Source: Chloroflexota bacterium (lineage in GTDB: Bacteria; Chloroflexota; UBA11872; VXOZ01). Taken from it: a stretch of 64,000 bases of DNA. Location: contig OZ244814.1 in assembly GCA_965220175.1 (NCBI GenBank), positions 300,992-364,991 of the forward strand, written 5' to 3'. The notes beneath the pieces were generated by a model that was given only the letters and a program-made list of their open reading frames with translations, was not told the origin of the DNA and searched no databases. This document shows positions 2,411 to 9,844 of this stretch, one piece after another (the first letter of the stretch is position 1; each line of letters starts with the position of its first letter). Position numbers and translations under genes: made by a program.

Positions 2411-3472
2411 GTGCCGATTGTCACCGCTGATGCCTTGCGCCAAATCGGCCGGGAGTTCTTTATTGCCTTAGGCTGTCTTCCTGATGACGCTCAGATTGTT
2501 GCCGACCACCTGGTGCAGTCGAGCCTCTATGGGCACGATTCCCACGGCATTCTGCGCATGTACGAGTATGCGGACGCCGTGAGCGAAGGACGCGTCCACC
2601 CCCAGAATGCGCCCGAGATCGTAAGCGAAAGCCCGTGCACGGCGGTGATCGACGCCAACGACGGCTTTGGACAAGTGGGCGCGACTCTGGCCGCCACCAT
2701 GGCGATCGAAAAGGCGCGGCAACACGGGCTGGCGAGTATCACCTTGCGCAGAGCAAGCCACATCGGCCGGGCGGGAGAATACCCCGCCATGATCGCTCGC
2801 GCCGGACTGATTGGCACGGCCTACGTCAACTTCGGTCGCTTGGGCATTCAGGTGGCGCCCTTTGGCGGCATTGACGGCCGCCTGGCGACGAATCCGCTGG
2901 CTTTCGCCGCGCCCCGCCGCGACGCTCCGCCCATCATGGTGGACATGACGACGAGCACCGTCGCCGACGGCAAGATCCGTTTGGCTACCAATCTCGGGAA
3001 GCCGCTGCCGGAGGGTTGGATCCTTGATGCGGACGGCAAACCCAGCACGGACCCGCACGACTACTTTGCCGAGCCGCGCGGGGCAATCCTGCCGCTGGGC
3101 GGCCCGCTCGGCCATAAGGGCTACGCGCTGTCTATGATGGTGGAACTCTGCGCCGGGGGCCTGAGCGGTCAGGGCATGGCTTCCGGCGACCCGCGAGCGC
3201 CCGCCAATGCCTTCCTGCTTACCGCCTACAACATCGAGCACTTTACGGACATGGAATTCTTCTACGAAGAGGTGGAAGCCCTGGTCGGCCACGTCAAGTC
3301 GAGCCGCACCGCGCCGGGCGTGACGGAGATACTCTTACCCGGCGAGCCGGAGTTTCGCACCGAGCGTGAGCGCAAACAGTCGGGCATCTCCATCGACGAT
3401 ACCACCTGGGATAGGGTCTGCGCCGCGGCGCGTGACATCGGCCTCGATCCAACTTCCTGGGATTTCGCCTGA
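2411..3472 (+). CDS. Ldh_2 family (malate/L-lactate dehydrogenase family 2) NAD(P)H-dependent oxidoreductase, paralog 1
   Basis: GTG start with AAAGGA RBS. Conserved DSHG, HIGRAGEYP, FGGIDGRLATNPLAFAAP and GGPLGHKGYALS blocks typical of the ureidoglycolate / sulfolactate / pyrroline-2-carboxylate reductase family. Its antisense ORF 2468..3292 is judged spurious. Confidence 0.85.
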   Translation: MPIVTADALRQIGREFFIALGCLPDDAQIVADHLVQSSLYGHDSHGILRMYEYADAVSEGRVHPQNAPEIVSESPCTAVIDANDGFGQVGATLAATMAIEKARQHGLASITLRRASHIGRAGEYPAMIARAGLIGTAYVNFGRLGIQVAPFGGIDGRLATNPLAFAAPRRDAPPIMVDMTTSTVADGKIRLATNLGKPLPEGWILDADGKPSTDPHDYFAEPRGAILPLGGPLGHKGYALSMMVELCAGGLSGQGMASGDPRAPANAFLLTAYNIEHFTDMEFFYEEVEALVGHVKSSRTAPGVTEILLPGEPEFRTERERKQSGISIDDTTWDRVCAAARDIGLDPTSWDFA

Positions 3473-3490
3473 TGCCAAGAGGAGCCGCCT

Positions 3491-4555
3491 GTGCCTACCG
3501 TCGCCGCTGACACTTTGCGCCGCATTGGGTACGCCTGCTTCGAGGCCTTGGGCTGCCGTGCGGATGACGCGCGCATAGTCGCCGATCACCTGGTGCAATC
3601 CAACCTCTTCGGCCATGATTCCCACGGTGTAACCCACATTGAACGGTATGGCCGCGCCGTGTGGGAAGAGCGGCGGGTTGATCCGCAAGCCGTGCCGGAA
3701 GTCGTGCGTGAGCACCCTTGTACGGCAGTGGTGGACGCGCATCATGGGTTCGGCCAGGTGGGCGCGACCTTCGCAACCGAGCTCTTGATCAAGAAGGCGC
3801 AGCAGCACGGTGTCGCCAGTGTCGCATTGCGCAACACAAGCCACATTGGCAGGGCCGGCGCGTACCCACTGATGGTGGCGCGGGCCGGCATGATCGGGCT
3901 GGTCTTCGTCAACGCCGGTCGGATGGGTTTTCAGGTCGCGCCGTTCGGCGGCATCGACGGCCGCCTGGGCACAAATCCGCTGGCCTTTGCCGCGCCGCGC
4001 CGCGCACACGCGCCGCTCTTTGTGGACATGAGTTCCTCAACCGTCGCCGACGGCAAGATCTATCTCGCCGCTAATCAGGGCAAGCCGGTGCCTGAGGGCT
4101 GGTTCGTCGACGCGGACGGCAACCCCAGCACCGACCCGCATGCGTACTTTGAAGAACCGCGCGGGGCTGTGCTCCCGCTGGGCGGGCCTCTAGGGCACAA
4201 GGGGTTTGCGTTGAGCATGCTGATGGAGATCTGCGGTGGAGGGATGAGCGGCCAGGGCATGTCTCAAGGCGACATGCGCGTGAGCAGCAACGGCGTACTC
4301 ATGACCGCCTACGACATCGCCCAGATCGGCGATGTGGAGTTCTTCTATGACGAGGTAGAGGCCCTTGCGCGCCACGTCAAGTCAAGCCGCACGGCGCCCG
4401 GCGTAGACGAAATCCTGCTTCCCGGCGAACCGGAATACCGCGCCGAGCGCGAGCGGACACAAGCGGGCATCCCCATTGACGACACCACGTGGGAGAAGCT
4501 CTGCGCGGCTGCGCGGCACCTCGGCTTGGAACCGACTGCCTGGAAACTCTGCTAA
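3491..4555 (+). CDS. Ldh_2 family oxidoreductase, paralog 2
   Basis: GTG start with GAGGAG RBS, 18 nt after paralog 1. Same conserved blocks. About 75% identical to paralog 3 by eye. Confidence 0.85.
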   Translation: MPTVAADTLRRIGYACFEALGCRADDARIVADHLVQSNLFGHDSHGVTHIERYGRAVWEERRVDPQAVPEVVREHPCTAVVDAHHGFGQVGATFATELLIKKAQQHGVASVALRNTSHIGRAGAYPLMVARAGMIGLVFVNAGRMGFQVAPFGGIDGRLGTNPLAFAAPRRAHAPLFVDMSSSTVADGKIYLAANQGKPVPEGWFVDADGNPSTDPHAYFEEPRGAVLPLGGPLGHKGFALSMLMEICGGGMSGQGMSQGDMRVSSNGVLMTAYDIAQIGDVEFFYDEVEALARHVKSSRTAPGVDEILLPGEPEYRAERERTQAGIPIDDTTWEKLCAAARHLGLEPTAWKLC

Positions 4556-4656
4556 GGTGAAGTCGCGAACCTGAGTGGAATGCCGCCTCGTACGCGTCCG
4601 GCCAAGACTAATTTCCTGCTCAGACTTGACTGGTCCAACGCCGAAAGGAGCCGTTT

Positions 4657-5721
4657 GTGCCTACCGTAACCGCTGAAGCCCTGCGCCGCATTGGCTACGC
4701 CTTCTTTGAAGCGCTGGGCTGCCGACCGGATGATGCCCGCATCATTCAGGACCATCTTGTCCAGTCCAATCTCTACGGCCATGACTCCCACGGCGTGGTG
4801 CGCATGGAGCAGTACTGGCACGCCGTGCGGGAAGAGGGTGTGGTTGACCCGCAAGCGGCGCCGGAAGTCGTGCGTGAACACCCGTGCACCGCGGTCGTGG
4901 ACGCGCATCACGGCTTCGGTCAGGTGGGCGCGGTGTTTGCCACGAAGCTCTTGATAGAGAAGGCGCAACAGTACGGCATCGCCAGTGTCTCGCTGCGCAA
5001 TACGAGCCACATCGGCAGAGTGGGCGAGTATCCGCACATGGTCGCGCAGGCCGGCATGATCGGGCTGATTTTTGTCAATGCGGGGAGGCTGGGCTTTCAG
5101 GTCGCGCCCTTTGGCGGTATCGACGGCCGGCTGGGCACGAATCCACTCGCATTTGCCGCGCCGCGGCGCAACGATCCGCCCTTTTTCGTGGACTTGACGA
5201 CGTCCACCGTCGCCGACGGCAAGATCAAGATAGCCGCTAACGAAGGTAAGCCCTTGCCCGAGGGCTGGATTGTCGATGCGGATGGCAACCCCAGCACGGA
5301 TCCCAGCGACTACTGGGACGAGCCGCGCGGGGCTGTGCTGCCGGTGGGCGGCCCTTTGGGACACAAAGGCACTGCGCTGAGCATGCTGAATGAGATCTGC
5401 GGCGGCGGATTGAGCGGACAGGGCATGTCGGCCGGCGACATGCGAGTGGACAGCAACGGCGTGCACATGACCGCCTACGACATCGGGCAGTTTGTGGAGC
5501 CGGAGTTCTTCTATGACGAGATCGATACGCTCATCAGCCACGTGAAAACCAGCCGCCCGGCTGCCGGCGTGGACGAGGTCCTGGTCGCCAGCGAGCCGGA
5601 GTACCGCGCGCAGCGTGAGCGCGAAAAGACGGGCATCCCTATCGACGAAACGACGTGGAGCAAGCTCTGCGACGCTGCCCGCGACCTGGGATTGAAACCG
5701 GATACCTGGGTACTGGCCTAG
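4657..5721 (+). CDS. Ldh_2 family oxidoreductase, paralog 3
   Basis: GTG start with AAGGAG RBS. Same family blocks. The 409-aa antisense ORF 4552..5781 is judged spurious. Confidence 0.85.
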   Translation: MPTVTAEALRRIGYAFFEALGCRPDDARIIQDHLVQSNLYGHDSHGVVRMEQYWHAVREEGVVDPQAAPEVVREHPCTAVVDAHHGFGQVGAVFATKLLIEKAQQYGIASVSLRNTSHIGRVGEYPHMVAQAGMIGLIFVNAGRLGFQVAPFGGIDGRLGTNPLAFAAPRRNDPPFFVDLTTSTVADGKIKIAANEGKPLPEGWIVDADGNPSTDPSDYWDEPRGAVLPVGGPLGHKGTALSMLNEICGGGLSGQGMSAGDMRVDSNGVHMTAYDIGQFVEPEFFYDEIDTLISHVKTSRPAAGVDEVLVASEPEYRAQREREKTGIPIDETTWSKLCDAARDLGLKPDTWVLA

Positions 5722-5803
5722 AACGGAATTGGTAGACTTGGGTCTAGACCGTGGAGAAATGAAATTAGACGTATGAACCAACGTCTAAGGTGGGTCCTCG
5801 GAT

Positions 5804-5900
5804 CGTCATTCTGAGGAGCGGAGCGACGAAGAATCTCGAATCAGGAGCTCTTTAGATTCCACGAACCGTGTTCGACGAACCCCGTTCGACGCTGAGCTTG
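5804..5900. repeat. Intergenic hairpin repeats (family E GTCATTCTGAGGAGCGGAGCGACGAAGAATC plus partial family B CGTTCGACGCTGAGCTTGG)
   Basis: Reverse-complement copy of the family E core at 25491..25523. The family B motif recurs at 8931..8990, 18497..18575, 19849..19986, 27203..27264 and 58753..58810. Confidence 0.6.
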
Positions 5901-5981
5901 GAGTGACAGGAAACGACTCCCTCAACGCTACCAAGTCTATTGCTACTAAGTCCGGCCTAGAAGACTCTTGCGCTAGAAAGG

Positions 5982-7052
5982 ATGCCGGTTGTGCCGACTT
6001 TCACAGCAAATACCTTGCGCCGCATCGGCGAAGAATTCTTGATCGCCCTGGGATGCCGTCCAGCAGACGCGCAGCTTGTGGCCGATCACCTTCTTCAGTC
6101 AAACCTCTTCGGCCATGATTCCCATGGTGTTTTGCGTTTGTATGAATATGCCCGCGCCGTGCATGAAGGACGCCTCGATCCCTTGGGTTCGCCGGAAATC
6201 GTGAGCGAACACGCTTGCACGGCGGTCGTGGACGCGCACGACGGCTTCGGCCACGTGGGCGCGGCTCTGGCAACCAAGCTGGCGATCGAGAAGGCGCGGC
6301 AGCATGGCTTGGCAAGCGTTTCGCTGCGCCGCGCGAGCCACATCGGCCGGGCGGGAGCGTATCCCCTGGTGATGGCCCAGGCAGGCATGCTCGGTGTGGC
6401 CTACGTCAACTCCGGCCGCATGGGATTCCAAGTAGTGCCGTTCGGCGGCATCGACGGTCGCCTTGGCACCAATCCGCTGGCCTTCGCCGCGCCCCGCCGC
6501 GCCGACCCGCCCATCATGGTGGATATGACGACCTGCACCGTTGCCGACGGCAAGATCCGCGTGGCCACCAATCTCGGCAAACCGCTGCCGGAGGGCTGGA
6601 TCATCGATAAGGCAGGCAATCCCAGCACGGACCCGCAAGTGTATTGGGAGGAACCGCGCGGCGGAATCTTACCTCTCGGCGGTCCGCTCGGGCACAAGGG
6701 CTATGCGCTCAGCTTGATGATGGAACTCAGCGCCGGCGGGCTGAGCGGACACGGCATGTCTTCGGGCGACATGCGCTCACCCGGCAACGGTGCGCTGTTC
6801 ACCGCATACGACATCGCCCACTTCACTGACCTGGACTCCTACTACGACGAGGTTGAGGCCATGGCAAGGCACGTCAAGTCAAGCCGTCCCGCGCCGGGCG
6901 TGACTGAGATATTCCTGCCCGGCGAGCCGGAGTTCCGCACGGAGCGCGAGCGTAAGCAAACAGGCATCTCCATTGACGAGACTACATGGGCAAAGCTCTG
7001 CGAATCCGCTCGCGAACTGGGCCTGGATCCTGGCGCTTGGTGGAATCCGTAA
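5982..7052 (+). CDS. Ldh_2 family oxidoreductase, paralog 4
   Basis: Same family blocks. Most similar to paralog 1. The start may be the in-frame GTG at 5991 rather than ATG at 5982. Confidence 0.8.
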   Translation: MPVVPTFTANTLRRIGEEFLIALGCRPADAQLVADHLLQSNLFGHDSHGVLRLYEYARAVHEGRLDPLGSPEIVSEHACTAVVDAHDGFGHVGAALATKLAIEKARQHGLASVSLRRASHIGRAGAYPLVMAQAGMLGVAYVNSGRMGFQVVPFGGIDGRLGTNPLAFAAPRRADPPIMVDMTTCTVADGKIRVATNLGKPLPEGWIIDKAGNPSTDPQVYWEEPRGGILPLGGPLGHKGYALSLMMELSAGGLSGHGMSSGDMRSPGNGALFTAYDIAHFTDLDSYYDEVEAMARHVKSSRPAPGVTEIFLPGEPEFRTERERKQTGISIDETTWAKLCESARELGLDPGAWWNP

Positions 7053-7245
7053 GACGAAGATTCGTCGCCACTCAACTCAAGGGACACTGCGATTGGGGTG
7101 TTGGGTGAGGAGTGGCGGGGATGCGTCTTCCATGACGCAGCAGAGGGGGTAGACTGTGTTCTTTGGTAGTTACCGGTTCAACAATTCTACGATTGCTAAG
7201 CAAACGCTATAATTGGAATATAGGATGTGAACCCTGGAGGCCGCG

Positions 7246-7527
7246 ATGGACGCAAAGCAAGCAGTGCAAGAAGCAAAAAACTACATATTGGATCTCTTTG
7301 AAGGCGAAGACATCGAATATGTCGGCCTCGAGGAAGTAGAGTTCGACCACGAATCTGAAGAGTGGAAGGTTACCCTAGGCTTCTCGCGCCCTTGGGATCG
7401 TCCCAAGTCACTTTCGGTTGCGCTGCGCGACGAGCCGCTTAGGCGCTCCTACAAATTAGTTCGTATAGACGACACTACGGGTAAAGTCACATCTGTTAGG
7501 GACCGCGCCCTGGTGACCGCAAGATAG
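7246..7527 (+). CDS. hypothetical acidic small protein (93 aa), candidate partner of downstream PIN nuclease
   Basis: GGAGG RBS. Preceded by a low-GC leader with a TATAAT hexamer at about 7212..7217. Stop is 5 nt before the PIN gene start. No known antitoxin fold recognised. Confidence 0.5.
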   Translation: MDAKQAVQEAKNYILDLFEGEDIEYVGLEEVEFDHESEEWKVTLGFSRPWDRPKSLSVALRDEPLRRSYKLVRIDDTTGKVTSVRDRALVTAR

Positions 7528-7532
7528 GTTCG

Positions 7533-7997
7533 ATGCCGACACCAGGTGTCTTCATCGACACGAACCTCCTATTGCTCCTCGTCGTGGGCAGTGCCGACAA
7601 GGCCATAGTTGCGAAACACAAGCGGCTAAAGGGTTACACGGCAGAGGATTACGATACTCTTCTCGACCTACTCGATCTCTTTCCCCAAGTCCTAGTCACG
7701 CCCCACACGCTCGCGGAGACCTCCAATCTCCTTGCGCAACACAACGATCCCGAGCGAACCCGGCTGTTTGGGCAACTCCGTTTCCTCATCCATGAATGTA
7801 AGGAAGTGGCAATTGCAGGTACCGTCGCTGCAAACAACAGTGCGTTCCCGCAGCTTGGACTGACAGACTCGGCTCTATTGGAGGTGGTAGCGCCTGAATC
7901 TCCGCTGCTCACTGTCGACTGGGGGCTATTCCAGCAGGCATTGGCAAGAGGATCGGACACGGCGGTCAATTTCACGGATTTTCGGGGACTCGATTGA
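7533..7997 (+). CDS. PIN-domain ribonuclease (VapC-like)
   Basis: N-terminal VFIDTNLLLLLVVG plus downstream conserved acidic residues (LAETSN, LTDSAL, TVDWG) match the four-acidic-residue PIN active site. Confidence 0.7.
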   Translation: MPTPGVFIDTNLLLLLVVGSADKAIVAKHKRLKGYTAEDYDTLLDLLDLFPQVLVTPHTLAETSNLLAQHNDPERTRLFGQLRFLIHECKEVAIAGTVAANNSAFPQLGLTDSALLEVVAPESPLLTVDWGLFQQALARGSDTAVNFTDFRGLD

Positions 7998-8121
7998 CCG
8001 CAGGGAATTTCAAGAGGAAGCTGTTTCGCGGTGCCGCCAATCTCTTGGTTCAAGACGTTGGCGGCGTGGTCAATGCCCCAGTTCGGCAAATTCGAAGAGG
8101 CCTAGGACAGAATCAGCCCAC

Positions 8122-8790
8122 TCAAAACAAGCTGAGTTGATCGTCAGCAGGCTCATCGGCGGCAGCAGCGGATTCCGCGGGTGCCTCCTGCTTCTGCTCA
8201 AAGTACCCATCGGCCTGTAGTTCCTTCAGGCGTTTGGCTATGGCGGGGAGCCGTTGCACGTCTTCGAAGAGCATCTGCTTGATGGCGGGAGTGCGCAATC
8301 CGGCGGCGGGATGGTAGAAGGGCACGTAGGCGCGGCCGTCGGCGAACTTGGGTTCGCCGTGCACGGCGGAAATTTTGGCGCCGGGGAAGAAGCGCGCCAG
8401 TGAATAGCGGCCGAGCGTGACGACGATGCGCGGGTCGATGGCGGCAAGCTGGCGTTCGAGAAACGCGTTGCAGGCGGCGATTTCGTCCGGCTGGGGATCG
8501 CGGTTGCCGGGCGGGCGGCACTTGACGACGTTGGTGATAAACACCTGCTCGCGCCGCAAACCCACCGCCTCCAGCATCTCCTCCAGCAGCTTGCCCGCCT
8601 GGCCGACAAAGGGCCGCCCCTGCTGGTCTTCGTGAAACCCCGGCCCCTCGCCGATGAACATGATGCCGCTCTTGATGGCGCCCTCACCCGGGACGGCCTT
8701 GGTGCGCTGCTCACACAAACGGCACGCCGTGCACCGTCGCACTTCCGCGCCAATTGCGTCCAACACTTGCTCAGGGGATTCTGCCGCCAC
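8122..8790 (-). CDS. uracil-DNA glycosylase, family 4 (4Fe-4S type)
   Basis: GEGPG motif, CTAC...C cysteines, VVKCRPPGNRDP and HPAA motifs characteristic of family 4 UDG. Confidence 0.85.
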   Translation of the reverse strand: MAAESPEQVLDAIGAEVRRCTACRLCEQRTKAVPGEGAIKSGIMFIGEGPGFHEDQQGRPFVGQAGKLLEEMLEAVGLRREQVFITNVVKCRPPGNRDPQPDEIAACNAFLERQLAAIDPRIVVTLGRYSLARFFPGAKISAVHGEPKFADGRAYVPFYHPAAGLRTPAIKQMLFEDVQRLPAIAKRLKELQADGYFEQKQEAPAESAAAADEPADDQLSLF

Positions 8791-9074: not shown

Positions 9075-9383
9075 ATGGACACAACGTATCGTGGTACTCT
9101 AGCTAAAGGATTACCGAGGAGGCACCCAACCGTGACACAAGAGCGCCGAGAGGACCAACTCGCCCGCTTTCAGCGGGACGCCGACTACTTTGAGTCGCAC
9201 TACGAGCAACTCCTGCGAGAGTACCCCGAGCAGTGGGTTGCAGTCTTCAATCAGACCGTCGTGGGAACCGCCTCGGATTTCGATGCACTGCTTGAAACTC
9301 TGGATCAAGCTGGAATACCTATCGAGAGAGCCTTGATCGAGCGCGTTACCGCCGAGGAAGATATCCTCATTCTGCATACATGA
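9075..9383 (+). CDS. DUF5678-like small protein, translationally coupled to downstream aspartic protease
   Basis: C-terminal EQWVAVFNQTVVGTASDFDALLETL resembles DUF5678-type small proteins (assignment from memory, uncertain). The more likely start is in-frame GTG at 9132, preceded by a GAGGAGG RBS at 9116..9122. The stop overlaps the next gene (ATGA at 9380). Confidence 0.5.
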   Translation: MDTTYRGTLAKGLPRRHPTVTQERREDQLARFQRDADYFESHYEQLLREYPEQWVAVFNQTVVGTASDFDALLETLDQAGIPIERALIERVTAEEDILILHT

Positions 9384-9844
9384 TACGCGGCTACTTCCTC
9401 TCCCGTGGCGGCATACGTCGCCCGTTCGTGTCGGCCCGCTTCCAGTTCCCCTCTTTGGACAACCAGATTCTAGAAACACGACTGCTGGTCGACTCTGGTG
9501 CTGACAGCACTGTTCTTGCCCCTCGGGACAGTAAACGGTTGATGCGGCAAGTTGGGCTTGAATTTAGCACTTTGACCGCGACAAAGCCGGGGGCAGGCGT
9601 GGGCGGAAAAGTCAAGATGCGCACGCTAGAGGCTATCATGACCATCCCGCCCTACTCGATACCGCTAACTCTGACCCTATTGGAGCCAGAACCAGGAGAC
9701 ATATCTCCGCTCCCTTCCTTGCTGGGGCGCGACATTCTTTCCCACTTTGCCCTTTTCATGCAAGAACGAACCGGGCAGCTTCTCCTACTCGAACCGGAGG
9801 AAACCCGCGCGGCCGGTGTATTCGAGCGCATTCCCTCAACGTAG
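9380..9844 (+). CDS. retropepsin-like (clan AA) aspartic peptidase
   Basis: LLVDSGADSTVL is the hydrophobic-hydrophobic-D-S/T-G-A active-site motif of retroviral-type aspartyl proteases. Size 154 aa, consistent with a dimerising single-domain protease. Confidence 0.6.
   Translation: MIRGYFLSRGGIRRPFVSARFQFPSLDNQILETRLLVDSGADSTVLAPRDSKRLMRQVGLEFSTLTATKPGAGVGGKVKMRTLEAIMTIPPYSIPLTLTLLEPEPGDISPLPSLLGRDILSHFALFMQERTGQLLLLEPEETRAAGVFERIPST

What the first reader, a model, noticed from the sequence alone, without database searches (positions are those of the whole stretch)
7060..7997. Low-GC islet with an unannotated small acidic protein tightly coupled to a PIN nuclease
Roughly 200 bp of markedly lower-GC sequence containing a TATAAT hexamer and a GGAGG RBS precedes a 93-aa acidic ORF. 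That ORF ends 5 nt before a 154-aa PIN-domain protein with all four catalytic acidic residues.

The layout matches a type II toxin-antitoxin module of the VapBC type. The putative antitoxin, however, shows none of the usual RHH/AbrB/Phd/MerR DNA-binding signatures. It could be an unrecognised antitoxin class, or it could be unrelated to the PIN protein.
Basis: partly seen in the sequence, partly recalled or inferred. Interest (0 to 1): 0.55.

Follow-up and report, generated by a model that had tools for sequence, protein, structure and literature searches.

The report
PIN nuclease with novel small partner protein
A small, highly conserved protein of a fold not seen in known antitoxins is almost always encoded just ahead of a divergent PIN-type RNA-cutting enzyme across many bacterial phyla, which most likely makes the pair an undescribed toxin-antitoxin-like module; this has not been tested by experiment.

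Summary
ORF-A (7246-7527, 93 aa, pI 4.9) ends 5 nt before ORF-B (7533-7997, 154 aa), behind a conserved TATAAT and a GGAGG, in a stretch of low GC and low GC3.

B hits no Pfam, NCBIfam or PADLOC model. Its AlphaFold model (pLDDT 93.6) matches almost only PIN/VapC structures, and D9, E62, D112 and D129 are invariant in the family.

A hits no profile either. It folds (pLDDT 87.8) as one helix plus a four-stranded sheet, a cystatin/PepSY/NTF2-like roll with no DNA-binding fold. It is therefore not a VapB.

The pairing is not chance:
- 64 of the 80 closest A loci from separate species carry B directly downstream, most often 4 nt away.
- B relatives down to 31-37% identity nearly always have A upstream, including on cyanobacterial plasmids inside BREX-related defence loci.
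- Decay is one-sided. A survives alone, under purifying selection, or beside broken B genes. B without A is almost never seen.

Best reading (about 0.6): a mobile two-gene module in which A directly inhibits a PIN RNase. Toxicity, binding and regulation are inferred only. This is a new variant of a known kind, of moderate interest.

The parts
7208..7213 (+). TATAAT, a conserved -10-like hexamer 33 nt upstream of the A start codon
   Evidence: Only TATAAT on the + strand in 64 kb. ACGCTATAAT is invariant in orthologous loci L001-L003 while neighbouring spacer positions vary. No canonical -35 was found.
7236..7240 (+). GGAGG ribosome-binding site for A, 5 nt before the ATG
   Evidence: Read directly from the sequence. 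Conserved in L001 and L003; L002 has GGGG.
7246..7527 (+). ORF-A: 93-aa stand-alone protein with a cystatin/PepSY/NTF2-like alpha+beta roll; proposed inhibitor (antitoxin or immunity protein) of B
7378..7398 (+). Codons for the GFSRPWD motif (A residues 45-51; G45-W50 invariant, D51 nearly so), at the end of strand 2
   Evidence: G45, F46, S47, R48, P49 and W50 are invariant and D51 is >=90% conserved in 35 diverse sequences. With G27-L28-E29-E30 and R67/K70 they sit at neighbouring strand ends, which I infer forms one conserved patch.
7441..7455 (+). Codons for RRSYK (A residues 66-70), at the start of strand 3
   Evidence: R67 and K70 are invariant; S68 and Y69 are >=90% conserved. A similar RREYKV is present in the divergent viral-contig A-like ORF of L170.
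7528..7532 (+). 5-nt spacer between the A stop codon and the B start codon (translational coupling)
   Evidence: In 64 related loci the spacing is 4 nt in 33 cases, and it falls between a 14-nt overlap and a 10-nt gap in 59 of 64.
7533..7997 (+). ORF-B: 154-aa divergent PIN-fold protein; proposed Mg2+-dependent endoribonuclease (toxin or effector)
   Evidence: AF2 pLDDT 93.6. Foldseek against PDB: almost all of the top 50 chains are PIN/VapC/FitB (the exceptions are chains of the cyclodehydratase RohQ and a pre-ribosome subunit), best 2fe1 with E 8e-4, probability 1.0, TM 0.59/0.68. PGAP names relatives 'PIN domain-containing protein'. dN/dS 0.14-0.20.
7557..7559 (+). Codon D9, first acidic residue (end of strand 1, FIDTN)
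   Evidence: Invariant in 40 sequences. Placement from the secondary structure.
7716..7718 (+). Codon E62, second acidic residue (helix after strand 2, TLxETSNL)
   Evidence: Invariant. N65 is also invariant.
7866..7868 (+). Codon D112, third acidic residue (GLTD)
   Evidence: Invariant.
7917..7919 (+). Codon D129, fourth acidic residue (LLTVD, after strand 125-127)
   Evidence: Invariant.

Best explanation
A and B form a self-contained, horizontally mobile two-gene module of the toxin-antitoxin / toxin-immunity kind.

- Expression: both genes are transcribed from the conserved -10-like element at 7208 and translated in a coupled way, since the A stop codon lies 5 nt before the B start codon.
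- B: a very divergent PIN-domain, metal-dependent endoribonuclease whose four acidic residues (D9, E62, D112, D129) are intact.
- A: a small, stably folded cystatin/PepSY-like protein that neutralises B by direct protein-protein binding. The likely contact surface is its invariant patch (GLEE, GFSRPWD, RRSYK). Its basic residues R48, R67 and K70 are candidates for plugging the acidic, Mg2+-binding active site of B, as FitA/VapB arginines do in known complexes.
- Regulation: A has no DNA-binding domain, so classical antitoxin-mediated autorepression is not expected. Control would lie in stoichiometry, in release or turnover of A, or in a trigger such as phage infection.

Status of each step. 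Shown: the genes, their coupling, their conservation as a pair, the folds, the catalytic residues, and the one-sided decay pattern. Inferred: RNase activity, toxicity, A-B binding, the interface, and the trigger.
For: 1. Pairing seen from A. 64 of the 80 closest A loci, each from a different species, have B directly downstream. The most common spacing is 4 nt, and some pairs overlap.

2. Pairing seen from B.
- 4 of 4 distant B relatives (36-46% identity) have A overlapping upstream.
- 72 of 84 metagenome and viral loci show A upstream. Most of the remaining loci are cut by a contig end.
- All 5 plasmid records with B also carry A adjacent.
- Chromobacterium carries an intact pair.

3. Fold and residues of B. 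PIN fold and an invariant acidic tetrad.

4. Fold of A. A confident globular fold of a class that includes protein inhibitors and immunity proteins (cystatins, latexin, PepSY propeptides, colicin M immunity protein), with no DNA-binding fold. No fusion to a DNA-binding domain appears among 150 family representatives.

5. One-sided decay.
- 16 loci keep A with no trace of B.
- 5 loci keep an intact A beside a truncated or frameshifted B.
- Orphan A genes remain under purifying selection, dN/dS 0.06-0.22.
- B without A was seen once (L137), plus one rearranged case (L101).
- This is what is expected if B is harmful on its own and A is protective.

6. Mobility.
- At least eight phylum-level groups: Chloroflexota, Latescibacterota, Nitrospirota, Gemmatimonadota, Acidobacteriota, Verrucomicrobiota, Pseudomonadota, Cyanobacteriota.
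- Unrelated flanking genes in different genomes.
- Low GC3 relative to neighbours.
- Presence on plasmids, on 4 IMG/VR contigs and in defence loci.

7. Precedent. PIN toxins neutralised by non-canonical antitoxins (PanA, DUF2680, DUF2080 and SynP1 domains) have been validated experimentally (PMC10440598).
Against: - No experiment and no co-fold exists. A-B binding and B toxicity are inferred only.
- A is at least as constrained as B. dN/dS is 0.03-0.17 for A against 0.14-0.20 for B, and mean pairwise identity is 0.52 against 0.55. A also has an invariant surface motif across phyla, whereas classical antitoxins usually evolve faster than their toxins.
- A is predicted to be compact rather than partly disordered, so the usual labile-antitoxin logic may not apply.
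- Orphan A genes under purifying selection could mean that A has a function of its own.
- B is itself acidic (pI 4.8).
- Inter-protein covariation on about 105-130 pairs was uninformative.
Confidence: 0.6

Rival explanations
1. A and B are two subunits of one working, non-toxic enzyme. A would be an obligate specificity, activating or RNA-binding subunit of a PIN RNase used in RNA processing or as a defence effector, not its inhibitor.
For: - A is as conserved as B or more so, with an invariant surface patch.
- The tight translational coupling would also suit a stoichiometric complex.
- In one locus the pair sits inside the infB-rbfA-[A-B]-truB-rpsO-pnp ribosome-biogenesis operon (L087).
- In cyanobacterial plasmids the pair sits 4-5 nt upstream of the DUF1156 methylase gene of a BREX-related system, as if it were a component of that system.
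Against: - The decay pattern is one-sided. A persists alone in 16 of 80 loci and beside broken B genes in 5, still under purifying selection, while B almost never occurs without A. A mere helper subunit should be lost together with B.
- The flanking genes differ in nearly every lineage, which argues against a housekeeping role.
- Distribution across phyla is patchy.
Confidence: 0.2
2. A is the primary functional protein, with a role independent of B (for example binding a ligand, or inhibiting some other enzyme such as a protease, as cystatin and PepSY folds do). B would be a frequently associated but secondary passenger.
For: - The A family is large, with 2688 clusters at 50% identity.
- 20% of the nearest A loci lack B, yet A stays under purifying selection there.
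- The fold class is best known for protease and peptidase inhibitors.
- A-A tandem duplications exist (P0222, P0244, L026).
Against: - 80% of the closest loci have B within a few nucleotides, and virtually every B has an A, so the two are clearly tied.
- A has no signal peptide, whereas PepSY and cystatin-type inhibitors are mostly extracytoplasmic (direct reading of the sequence).
- No protease gene is consistently nearby.
- Where B is missing, the downstream genes are unrelated to one another.
Confidence: 0.12
3. A is a transcriptional autorepressor with a DNA-binding fold not yet recognised, making the module a classical type II TA system after all.
For: - A sits upstream, in the position of classical antitoxins.
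- Its C-terminal half is strongly basic, pI 11.2.
- There is a conserved promoter-like element.
Against: - The structural neighbours listed include no classical DNA-binding fold.
- The only inverted repeat in the 5' region (7053-7130, 71% complementary) lies about 80 nt upstream of the TATAAT rather than over it, and no operator-like repeat overlaps it.
- The spacer is poorly conserved apart from the -10-like element.
Confidence: 0.05
4. The adjacency is a coincidence, or ORF-A is not a real gene.
For: Only the lack of any functional annotation or profile hit for A.
Against: - Hundreds of homologues exist, with dN/dS far below 1.
- The structure prediction is confident.
- Adjacency is conserved across phyla and on plasmids.
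Confidence: 0.01

Closest known systems
VapBC / FitAB type II toxin-antitoxin systems (PIN toxin with an RHH, AbrB, Phd or HTH antitoxin)
   Same: - The upstream small gene is tightly coupled to a roughly 150-aa PIN-fold protein with the canonical acidic tetrad.
- Distribution is patchy and mobile, including plasmids.
- Structural neighbours of B are VapC, FitB and PAE PIN proteins.
- The proposed inhibition by basic residues reaching into the acidic active site mirrors FitA/VapB (my own knowledge of the FitAB structure; the paper is cited within PMC10440598).
   Different: - A has no DNA-binding domain and no disordered toxin-wrapping tail. It is a compact helix-plus-sheet roll.
- According to PMC5499597, PIN partners are RHH 29%, AbrB 24%, Phd 22% and HTH 16%, plus UPF0175. 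A is none of these.
- B is not detected by any PIN profile.
- A is at least as conserved as B.
NetFlax-type TA pairs: PIN/VapC-like toxins with non-canonical antitoxins (PanA, DUF2680, DUF2080, SynP1; PMC10440598)
   Same: A PIN-type nuclease toxin neutralised by a small partner domain other than the classical RHH/AbrB/Phd/HTH antitoxins. This is experimentally validated precedent for partner swapping.
   Different: The A family hits no Pfam model, so it is not one of the Pfam-based antitoxin domains (PanA, DUF2680, DUF2080, RHH_6) named in that paper; SynP1 could not be compared. In the loci sampled here A is almost monogamous with one PIN subfamily, the only other same-strand partner being ApeA in two related genomes, rather than promiscuous.
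Globular nuclease inhibitors and immunity proteins (barnase-barstar, colicin nuclease-Im, polymorphic-toxin immunity proteins; colicin M immunity protein Cmi as a structural neighbour)
   Different: Those systems protect producers of secreted toxins. B has no secretion or delivery domain, and the pair is intracellular. No sequence relationship to any of them was found.
PIN endoRNase 'backup effectors' embedded in BREX-related DUF499-DUF1156-helicase (Type-1 BR) systems (PMC12839542)
   Same: In 4 of 4 annotated cyanobacterial plasmids, distant A-B pairs lie inside such loci, directly upstream of the DUF1156 methylase in three of them (L173, L175, L176). Four metagenome loci also have DUF1156 adjacent.
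   Different: The window locus and most related loci have no DUF499 or DUF1156 genes nearby. In the text searched, that paper does not describe a small partner protein for the PIN effectors.
PepSY / cystatin / NTF2-like domains
   Different: There is no sequence similarity (no Pfam hit at E<=10), no signal peptide, a cytoplasmic context, and a family-specific invariant motif GFSRPWD...RRSYK.

Membership tests
PIN domain superfamily (for B) | Match to a PIN sequence profile (Pfam PIN clan or NCBIfam VapC models) | tested here: not met
   No Pfam or NCBIfam hit at E<=10.
PIN domain superfamily (for B) | PIN three-dimensional fold (alpha/beta/alpha sandwich with a parallel sheet) | tested here: met
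   AF2 pLDDT 93.6. Almost all of the top 50 Foldseek PDB chains are PIN/VapC/FitB/SMG6-type; the exceptions are chains of the cyclodehydratase RohQ and a pre-ribosome subunit. Best hit 2fe1: E 8e-4, probability 1.0, TM 0.59/0.68.
PIN domain superfamily (for B) | Four conserved acidic residues forming the metal-binding active site | tested here: met
   D9, E62, D112 and D129 are invariant in 40 sequences. Their placement at the strand-1 end, the helix after strand 2, the GLTD helix start and the TxD after the last strand follows the canonical pattern. That placement is inferred; residue-level superposition was not available.
PIN domain superfamily (for B) | Ribonuclease activity | not testable with these tools
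   Needs an in vitro cleavage assay.
VapBC family (for the pair) | Antitoxin is a VapB: an N-terminal RHH, AbrB, Phd or HTH DNA-binding domain plus a C-terminal toxin-binding tail | tested here: not met
Type II toxin-antitoxin modules (generic) | Two small co-directional genes, antitoxin first, overlapping or a few nucleotides apart | tested here: met
   5-nt spacer here. Spacing falls between a 14-nt overlap and a 10-nt gap in 59 of 64 related loci.
Type II toxin-antitoxin modules (generic) | The pair is conserved as a unit, with patchy, horizontally mobile distribution | tested here: met
   64 of 80 A loci carry B; nearly all B loci carry A; at least 8 phylum-level groups; variable flanks; plasmids and IMG/VR contigs.
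Type II toxin-antitoxin modules (generic) | Toxin is not tolerated without antitoxin, so orphan antitoxins and decayed toxins occur but orphan toxins are rare | tested here: met
   16 orphan A loci and 5 loci with an intact A beside a degraded B, against 1 B without A and 1 rearranged case among roughly 150 B loci. This is indirect genomic evidence only.
Type II toxin-antitoxin modules (generic) | Toxin arrests growth; antitoxin neutralises it by direct binding | not testable with these tools
Covariation was uninformative.
Type II toxin-antitoxin modules (generic) | Antitoxin is proteolytically labile and autoregulates the operon | tested here: inconclusive
   No DNA-binding fold, and the fold is predicted compact (pLDDT 87.8, with only loop 50-67 and the last 7 residues low). 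No operator-like repeat overlaps the -10-like element; the one inverted repeat lies about 80 nt upstream. Lability cannot be computed.
PepSY / cystatin superfamilies (for A) | Sequence-profile membership | tested here: not met
   No Pfam hit at E<=10. The profile search of PDB sequences gave only chance-level hits with E>1.
PepSY / cystatin superfamilies (for A) | Fold similarity | tested here: met
Type-1 BREX-related (DUF499/DUF1156/helicase) system accessory | Located within or adjacent to a DUF499-DUF1156-helicase locus | tested here: not met
   No DUF1156 or DUF499 relative was found in the 64-kb window or in most loci. The feature is met only for the distant cyanobacterial plasmid subfamily and a few metagenome loci.
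Known anti-phage defence systems (PADLOC-DB v2) | Match to a defence-system protein model | tested here: not met
   No PADLOC hit for A or B at E<=10.

The most novel reading that the evidence does not exclude
A is not a passive antidote. It would be the sensing and regulatory half of a new two-gene abortive-infection or defence module. In this reading, its invariant GLEE/GFSRPWD/RRSYK patch holds the PIN RNase inactive until a phage product, a ligand or a failing neighbouring defence system (for example the BREX-related loci where distant pairs sit) displaces or modifies A, releasing B. That would define a large antitoxin/sensor family (about 2700 clusters at 50% identity) with an inhibitor-type cystatin/PepSY fold, so far without any description. 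It would also explain why A is so strongly conserved and why it is kept even without a cis-encoded B.
Probability: 0.2. Interest if true: 0.7.

Novelty: new variant of a known kind. Interest (0 to 1): 0.5.

Why it matters
PIN-domain toxins are the most abundant toxin class in prokaryotes. According to the 2017 PIN classification (PMC5499597), their partners are almost always DNA-binding antitoxins.

This pair would add a partner class built on an inhibitor-type globular fold, with three notable properties:
- It has no model in Pfam, NCBIfam, PADLOC or PHROGs.
- It is very large and widespread: 2688 clusters at 50% identity, relatives in 398 species genomes, and at least 8 phylum-level groups.
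- It is unusually well conserved for an antitoxin.

If confirmed, several things would follow:
- Thousands of 'hypothetical protein + PIN domain-containing protein' gene pairs could be annotated.
- There would be a compact, structured protein inhibitor of a PIN RNase to study.
- It would provide a test case for toxin control without antitoxin-mediated autorepression.
- The embedding of distant members in BREX-related defence loci makes a role in phage defence directly testable.

Tried and rejected
- Sequence profiles. Pfam, NCBIfam, PADLOC and PHROGs gave nothing for A or B. The only entries were chance-level: a D-aminoacyl-tRNA deacylase model at 13.8 bits, and PHROG hits with E>=0.09.
- Profile searches against PDB sequences gave only E>1 hits. 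The 'SRPW' resemblance between A and amoebiasin-2, a chagasin-family inhibitor with an RPW loop, has E=1.1. I rejected it as chance: the fold class differs and the other chagasin motifs are absent.
- Co-folding of A with B could not be run.
- The afdb50 fold library was unavailable.
- BFVD viral structures gave no hit with E<=0.001 for A.
- Inter-protein covariation was tried two ways: mean-field DCA on 129 pairs and MI-APC on 105 gap-filtered pairs. The first was dominated by gap artefacts and the second by phylogenetic signal. Inter-protein pairs were not enriched (44 of the top 100 against 48 expected), and the known strand pairings in A were not recovered, so the analysis is uninformative.
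- The sigma-70 promoter scan found no full promoter. The only terminator-like site belongs to the convergent UDG gene.
- Rfam and tandem-repeat scans of 6900-8300 found nothing, so an RNA antitoxin or a repeat array is unlikely.
- Apparent longer proteins containing the A domain are mostly mis-called starts, frameshift fusions or A-A tandems, not fusions to DNA-binding domains.
- GenBank phage genomes contain no A relative.
- Literature searches for a cystatin-, PepSY- or NTF2-like antitoxin of a PIN toxin found no description.
- A look-up of the exact B protein's contig was not on record.
Full report
**1. What is in the sequence**

ORF-A runs 7246-7527 on the + strand (ATG start, 93 aa). ORF-B runs 7533-7997 (ATG start, 154 aa). 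The A stop codon and the B start codon are 5 nt apart.

- GGAGG sits at 7236-7240, 5 nt before the A start codon.
- TATAAT sits at 7208-7213. It is the only TATAAT on the + strand of the whole window.
- In the three orthologous Chloroflexota loci L001-L003 (84-86% nucleotide identity, same Ldh_2 paralogues upstream), ACGCTATAAT is invariant although the surrounding spacer has diverged.
- The simple sigma-70 scan finds no usable -35. I call this a conserved -10-like element, not a proven promoter.

Base composition:

| Region | GC |
|---|---|
| Window mean | 0.609 (sd 0.047 for 200-bp windows) |
| 7140-7245 | 0.47 |
| A | 0.518 |
| B | 0.557 |

GC3 is 0.56 for A and 0.61 for B, against 0.75-0.80 for the neighbouring Ldh_2, UDG and DHDPS genes. 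The compositional anomaly therefore covers the whole ~1-kb module, which fits horizontal acquisition.

A is acidic overall (pI 4.9). It is strongly polarised, with an N-terminal half of pI 4.05 and a C-terminal half of pI 11.2. No Rfam family and no tandem repeat lies in 6900-8300.

**2. What B is**

No Pfam, NCBIfam, PADLOC or PHROG model recognises B, even at E<=10.

The case for PIN rests on structure and residue conservation:
- 97 homologues were found. In a 40-sequence alignment D9, E62, N65, E91, D112 and D129 are invariant.
- The AlphaFold model is confident, with pLDDT 93.6 and pTM 0.88.
- Its Foldseek neighbours in the PDB are almost exclusively PIN proteins: PAE0151, PAE2754, VapC4, VapC20, FitB, Shigella, Rickettsia and Mycobacterium VapC, and SMG6. 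The best is 2fe1, with E 8e-4, probability 1.0 and TM 0.59/0.68.
- NCBI's pipeline names several relatives 'PIN domain-containing protein'.

B is therefore a very divergent PIN-fold protein that keeps the acidic tetrad. Nuclease activity is inferred from this, not shown.

**3. What A is**

A has no profile hit either, but it is clearly a real and important gene.
- A profile search of 1.84 billion cluster representatives finds 2688 clusters at E<=1e-3 and 992 at E<=1e-10. Almost all are stand-alone proteins of 85-105 aa.
- The longer hits are mis-called starts, frameshift fusions or A-A tandems. None is fused to a DNA-binding domain.
- Across 35 diverse members, A6, A10, E21, G27-L28-E29-E30, W40, T43, G45-F46-S47-R48-P49-W50, R67, K70 and S83 are invariant, and D51 is nearly so.
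- The AlphaFold model (pLDDT 87.8) has one helix (3-17) packed on four antiparallel strands (24-34, 39-47, 68-75, 81-86). Loop 50-67 and the last 7 residues are less confident.
- The invariant residues lie at adjacent strand ends (start of strand 1, end of strand 2, start of strand 3). I infer that they form one surface patch.

A is thus not a VapB or any classical antitoxin. It belongs to a fold class rich in protein inhibitors.

**4. Are A and B linked?**

Yes, very strongly.

Starting from A:
- 398 species-representative genomes encode a relative.
- In the best 80 loci, 64 have B immediately downstream on the same strand.
- The spacing is 4 nt in 33 of the 64, and in 59 of the 64 it lies between a 14-nt overlap and a 10-nt gap.

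Starting from B:
- Four distant relatives (36-46% identity) each have an A homologue overlapping upstream, with hmmsearch E from 1e-31 to 1e-37.
- Of 84 metagenome and IMG/VR loci, 72 show A upstream. Nine others are cut by a contig end.
- One locus (L170, a viral contig beside an endolysin-like amidase) has a divergent A-like ORF overlapping B by 4 nt. hhalign E is 0.0025 with the motifs in register, so this is probable but weak.
- Only L137 has B with no A, and L101 has a rearranged A fragment.
- In PLSDB exactly five plasmids carry B, and the same five carry A next to it.
- Chromobacterium spp. carry an intact pair between narXL and narGHJI.
- Pairwise identities of A and B are correlated across 66 pairs, r = 0.62.

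**5. The decay pattern is one-sided**

- Sixteen of the 80 A loci have no trace of B by tblastn.
- Five more keep a full-length A next to a damaged B: L032 has lost the first ~30 residues including D9, L033 is frameshifted, L037 and L045 are truncated, and L073 keeps only the last 29 residues.
- Orphan A genes are still under purifying selection, with dN/dS 0.06-0.22. That is similar to paired A (0.03-0.17). B has dN/dS 0.14-0.20.
- Downstream of orphan A lie unrelated and often defence or mobile genes. These include ApeA HEPN RNase on the same strand in L004 and L006, an HATPase_c_3 protein, DUF6602, a DNA methylase, an IS91-type transposase, a convergent RelE pair and a convergent UDG. L004-L006 lie just downstream of two tRNA-Met genes.

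'A can live without B, but B almost never without A' is what a harmful B and a protective A would produce. It equally shows that A is worth keeping on its own.

**6. Mobility and context**

The pair occurs in Chloroflexota, Latescibacterota, Nitrospirota, Gemmatimonadota, Acidobacteriota, Verrucomicrobiota, Pseudomonadota and Cyanobacteriota. Its neighbours differ from place to place:

| Locus | Neighbouring genes |
|---|---|
| This window | Ldh_2 and UDG |
| L081 (uncultured Methylobacterium) | NTP_transferase and PDDEXK_1 |
| L083 | Nuc_deoxyrib_tr |
| L085 | DLH and CoA_transf_3 |
| L087 | rbfA and truB |
| Chromobacterium | narL and narI |

In the four annotated cyanobacterial plasmids, the pair (31-37% identical B) lies inside a DUF499 ATPase ... 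DUF1156 methylase ... helicase locus, and in three of them (L173, L175, L176) it sits 4-5 nt upstream of the methylase gene. A 2026 analysis calls these Type-1 BREX-related systems and lists PIN endoRNases among rare 'backup effectors' (PMC12839542). Four metagenome loci also have DUF1156 adjacent to the pair. The window and most other loci do not.

**7. Most likely mechanism**

I commit to the following reading, at about 0.6.

A-B is an autonomous, mobile toxin-antitoxin / toxin-immunity-like module. B is a Mg2+-dependent PIN endoRNase. A is made first, and in stoichiometric coupling with B, and blocks B by direct binding through its invariant patch. R48, R67 and K70 are candidates to reach into the acidic active site, as FitA and VapB arginines do (established knowledge of those complexes). 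A's acidic GLEE and N-terminal half may contact the conserved basic KHRRLR segment of B (residues 28-33). Because A has no DNA-binding fold, classical autorepression is not expected, and how B is released is unknown.

Shown: the genes, the coupling, the co-conservation, the folds, the catalytic residues and the asymmetric decay. Inferred: activity, toxicity, binding, the interface and the trigger.

Points against this reading:
- A is at least as conserved as B.
- A is predicted to be compact rather than labile.
- Orphan A is maintained by selection.

These keep alive two rivals: a working A-B holoenzyme (about 0.2) and an independent primary function for A (about 0.12). A cryptic DNA-binding role (about 0.05) and chance adjacency (about 0.01) are unlikely.

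**8. Comparison with what is known**

The pair works like a VapBC or FitAB module, but it is not a member. The defining VapB feature was tested and is not met, and B fails every PIN sequence profile although it meets the structural and catalytic-residue criteria.

The 2017 PIN classification reports PIN partners as RHH (29%), AbrB (24%), Phd (22%) and HTH (16%), plus UPF0175 (PMC5499597). A is none of these. NetFlax validated PIN/VapC-like toxins with non-canonical antitoxins (PanA, DUF2680, DUF2080, SynP1; PMC10440598). A PIN toxin with an unconventional partner is therefore a known kind of thing, but A, which hits no Pfam model, is not one of the Pfam-based domains named there.

Mechanistically the nearest analogy is a globular nuclease inhibitor such as barstar or an immunity protein. 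I found no paper describing a cystatin-, PepSY- or NTF2-like antitoxin for a PIN toxin. That is limited to the open-access library searched.

**9. Verdict**

I rate it a new variant of a known kind, with interest 0.5.

The most novel reading still open (about 0.2) is that A is the sensor or regulator of a new two-gene defence module and the founder of a large, undescribed inhibitor-fold antitoxin family.

Noticed in passing
window 9075-9844 (+); also L175 9354-9988: A second tightly coupled small gene pair lies 1.1 kb downstream. A 102-aa DUF5678 protein (E 1.2e-5) overlaps by 4 nt a 154-aa retropepsin-like clan AA aspartic protease (Asp_protease_2, E 8e-5, just under the Pfam cut-off). A pair of the same kind ('clan AA aspartic protease' plus a 90-aa hypothetical protein) lies next to the DUF1156 methylase on the Nostoc plasmid that also carries A-B. 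The window segment 8802-10136 is not matched in the otherwise syntenic locus L002. This may be another mobile two-gene module.
   Followed up: partly
L175 5502-5648 and L176 5502-5651: Directly upstream of A on two Nostoc plasmids lies a copy of the first 49 codons of the DUF1156 methylase gene, whose full copy starts right after B. It looks as if the A-B cassette was inserted with duplication of the methylase 5' end.
   Followed up: partly
L173-L176 (cyanobacterial plasmids); L104, L106, L108, L116: Distant A-B pairs are embedded in DUF499 ATPase / DUF1156 methylase / helicase loci ('Type-1 BREX-related' systems), together with other small modules such as RelE pairs, HTH plus ImmA, and ThiF/multiubiquitin genes.
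   Followed up: partly
L087 2272-3013: In one metagenome contig the A-B pair is inserted between rbfA and truB, inside the conserved infB-rbfA-truB-rpsO-pnp operon.
   Followed up: no
L004 4365-5810; L006 4414-5838; tRNAs at L004 3168-3601: In close relatives (65-67% identical A), A has no B. Instead it is followed on the same strand by a ~480-aa ApeA protein (ApeA_NTD1 plus HEPN_Apea), just downstream of two tRNA-Met genes. The sister locus L005 has an HATPase_c_3 gene there instead. This is either a defence-island hot spot or a possible alternative RNase partner for A.
   Followed up: partly
L026 3980-5168; proteins P0222, P0244: Tandem duplications of A occur: two A genes ahead of one B in L026, and fused A-A proteins of about 190-200 aa.
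   Followed up: no
L137 1983-2444; L101 1649-2465: These are the only B genes found without an intact A. L137 has no A-like ORF upstream. L101 has fragments of the A C-terminus on both strands next to an apparently intact B, which could be a rearrangement or an assembly chimera.
   Followed up: partly
window ~3000-7052 (+): At least three tandem paralogous Ldh_2-family (malate/L-lactate dehydrogenase type 2) genes, about 69-77% identical at the nucleotide level, lie directly upstream of the module. The array is conserved in L001-L003.
   Followed up: partly
window 8122-8790 (-); L008 4316-5251; L010 3019-3690: A UDG-superfamily gene converges on the module. In two more distant Chloroflexota loci a UDG-superfamily gene abuts A directly and B is absent.
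   Followed up: partly
window 7378-7398 (A residues 45-51): The invariant 'SRPW' of A resembles the RPW loop motif of the chagasin-family cysteine-protease inhibitor amoebiasin-2 (3m86), but only at E=1.1 and in a different fold class. I judged it to be chance.
   Followed up: yes
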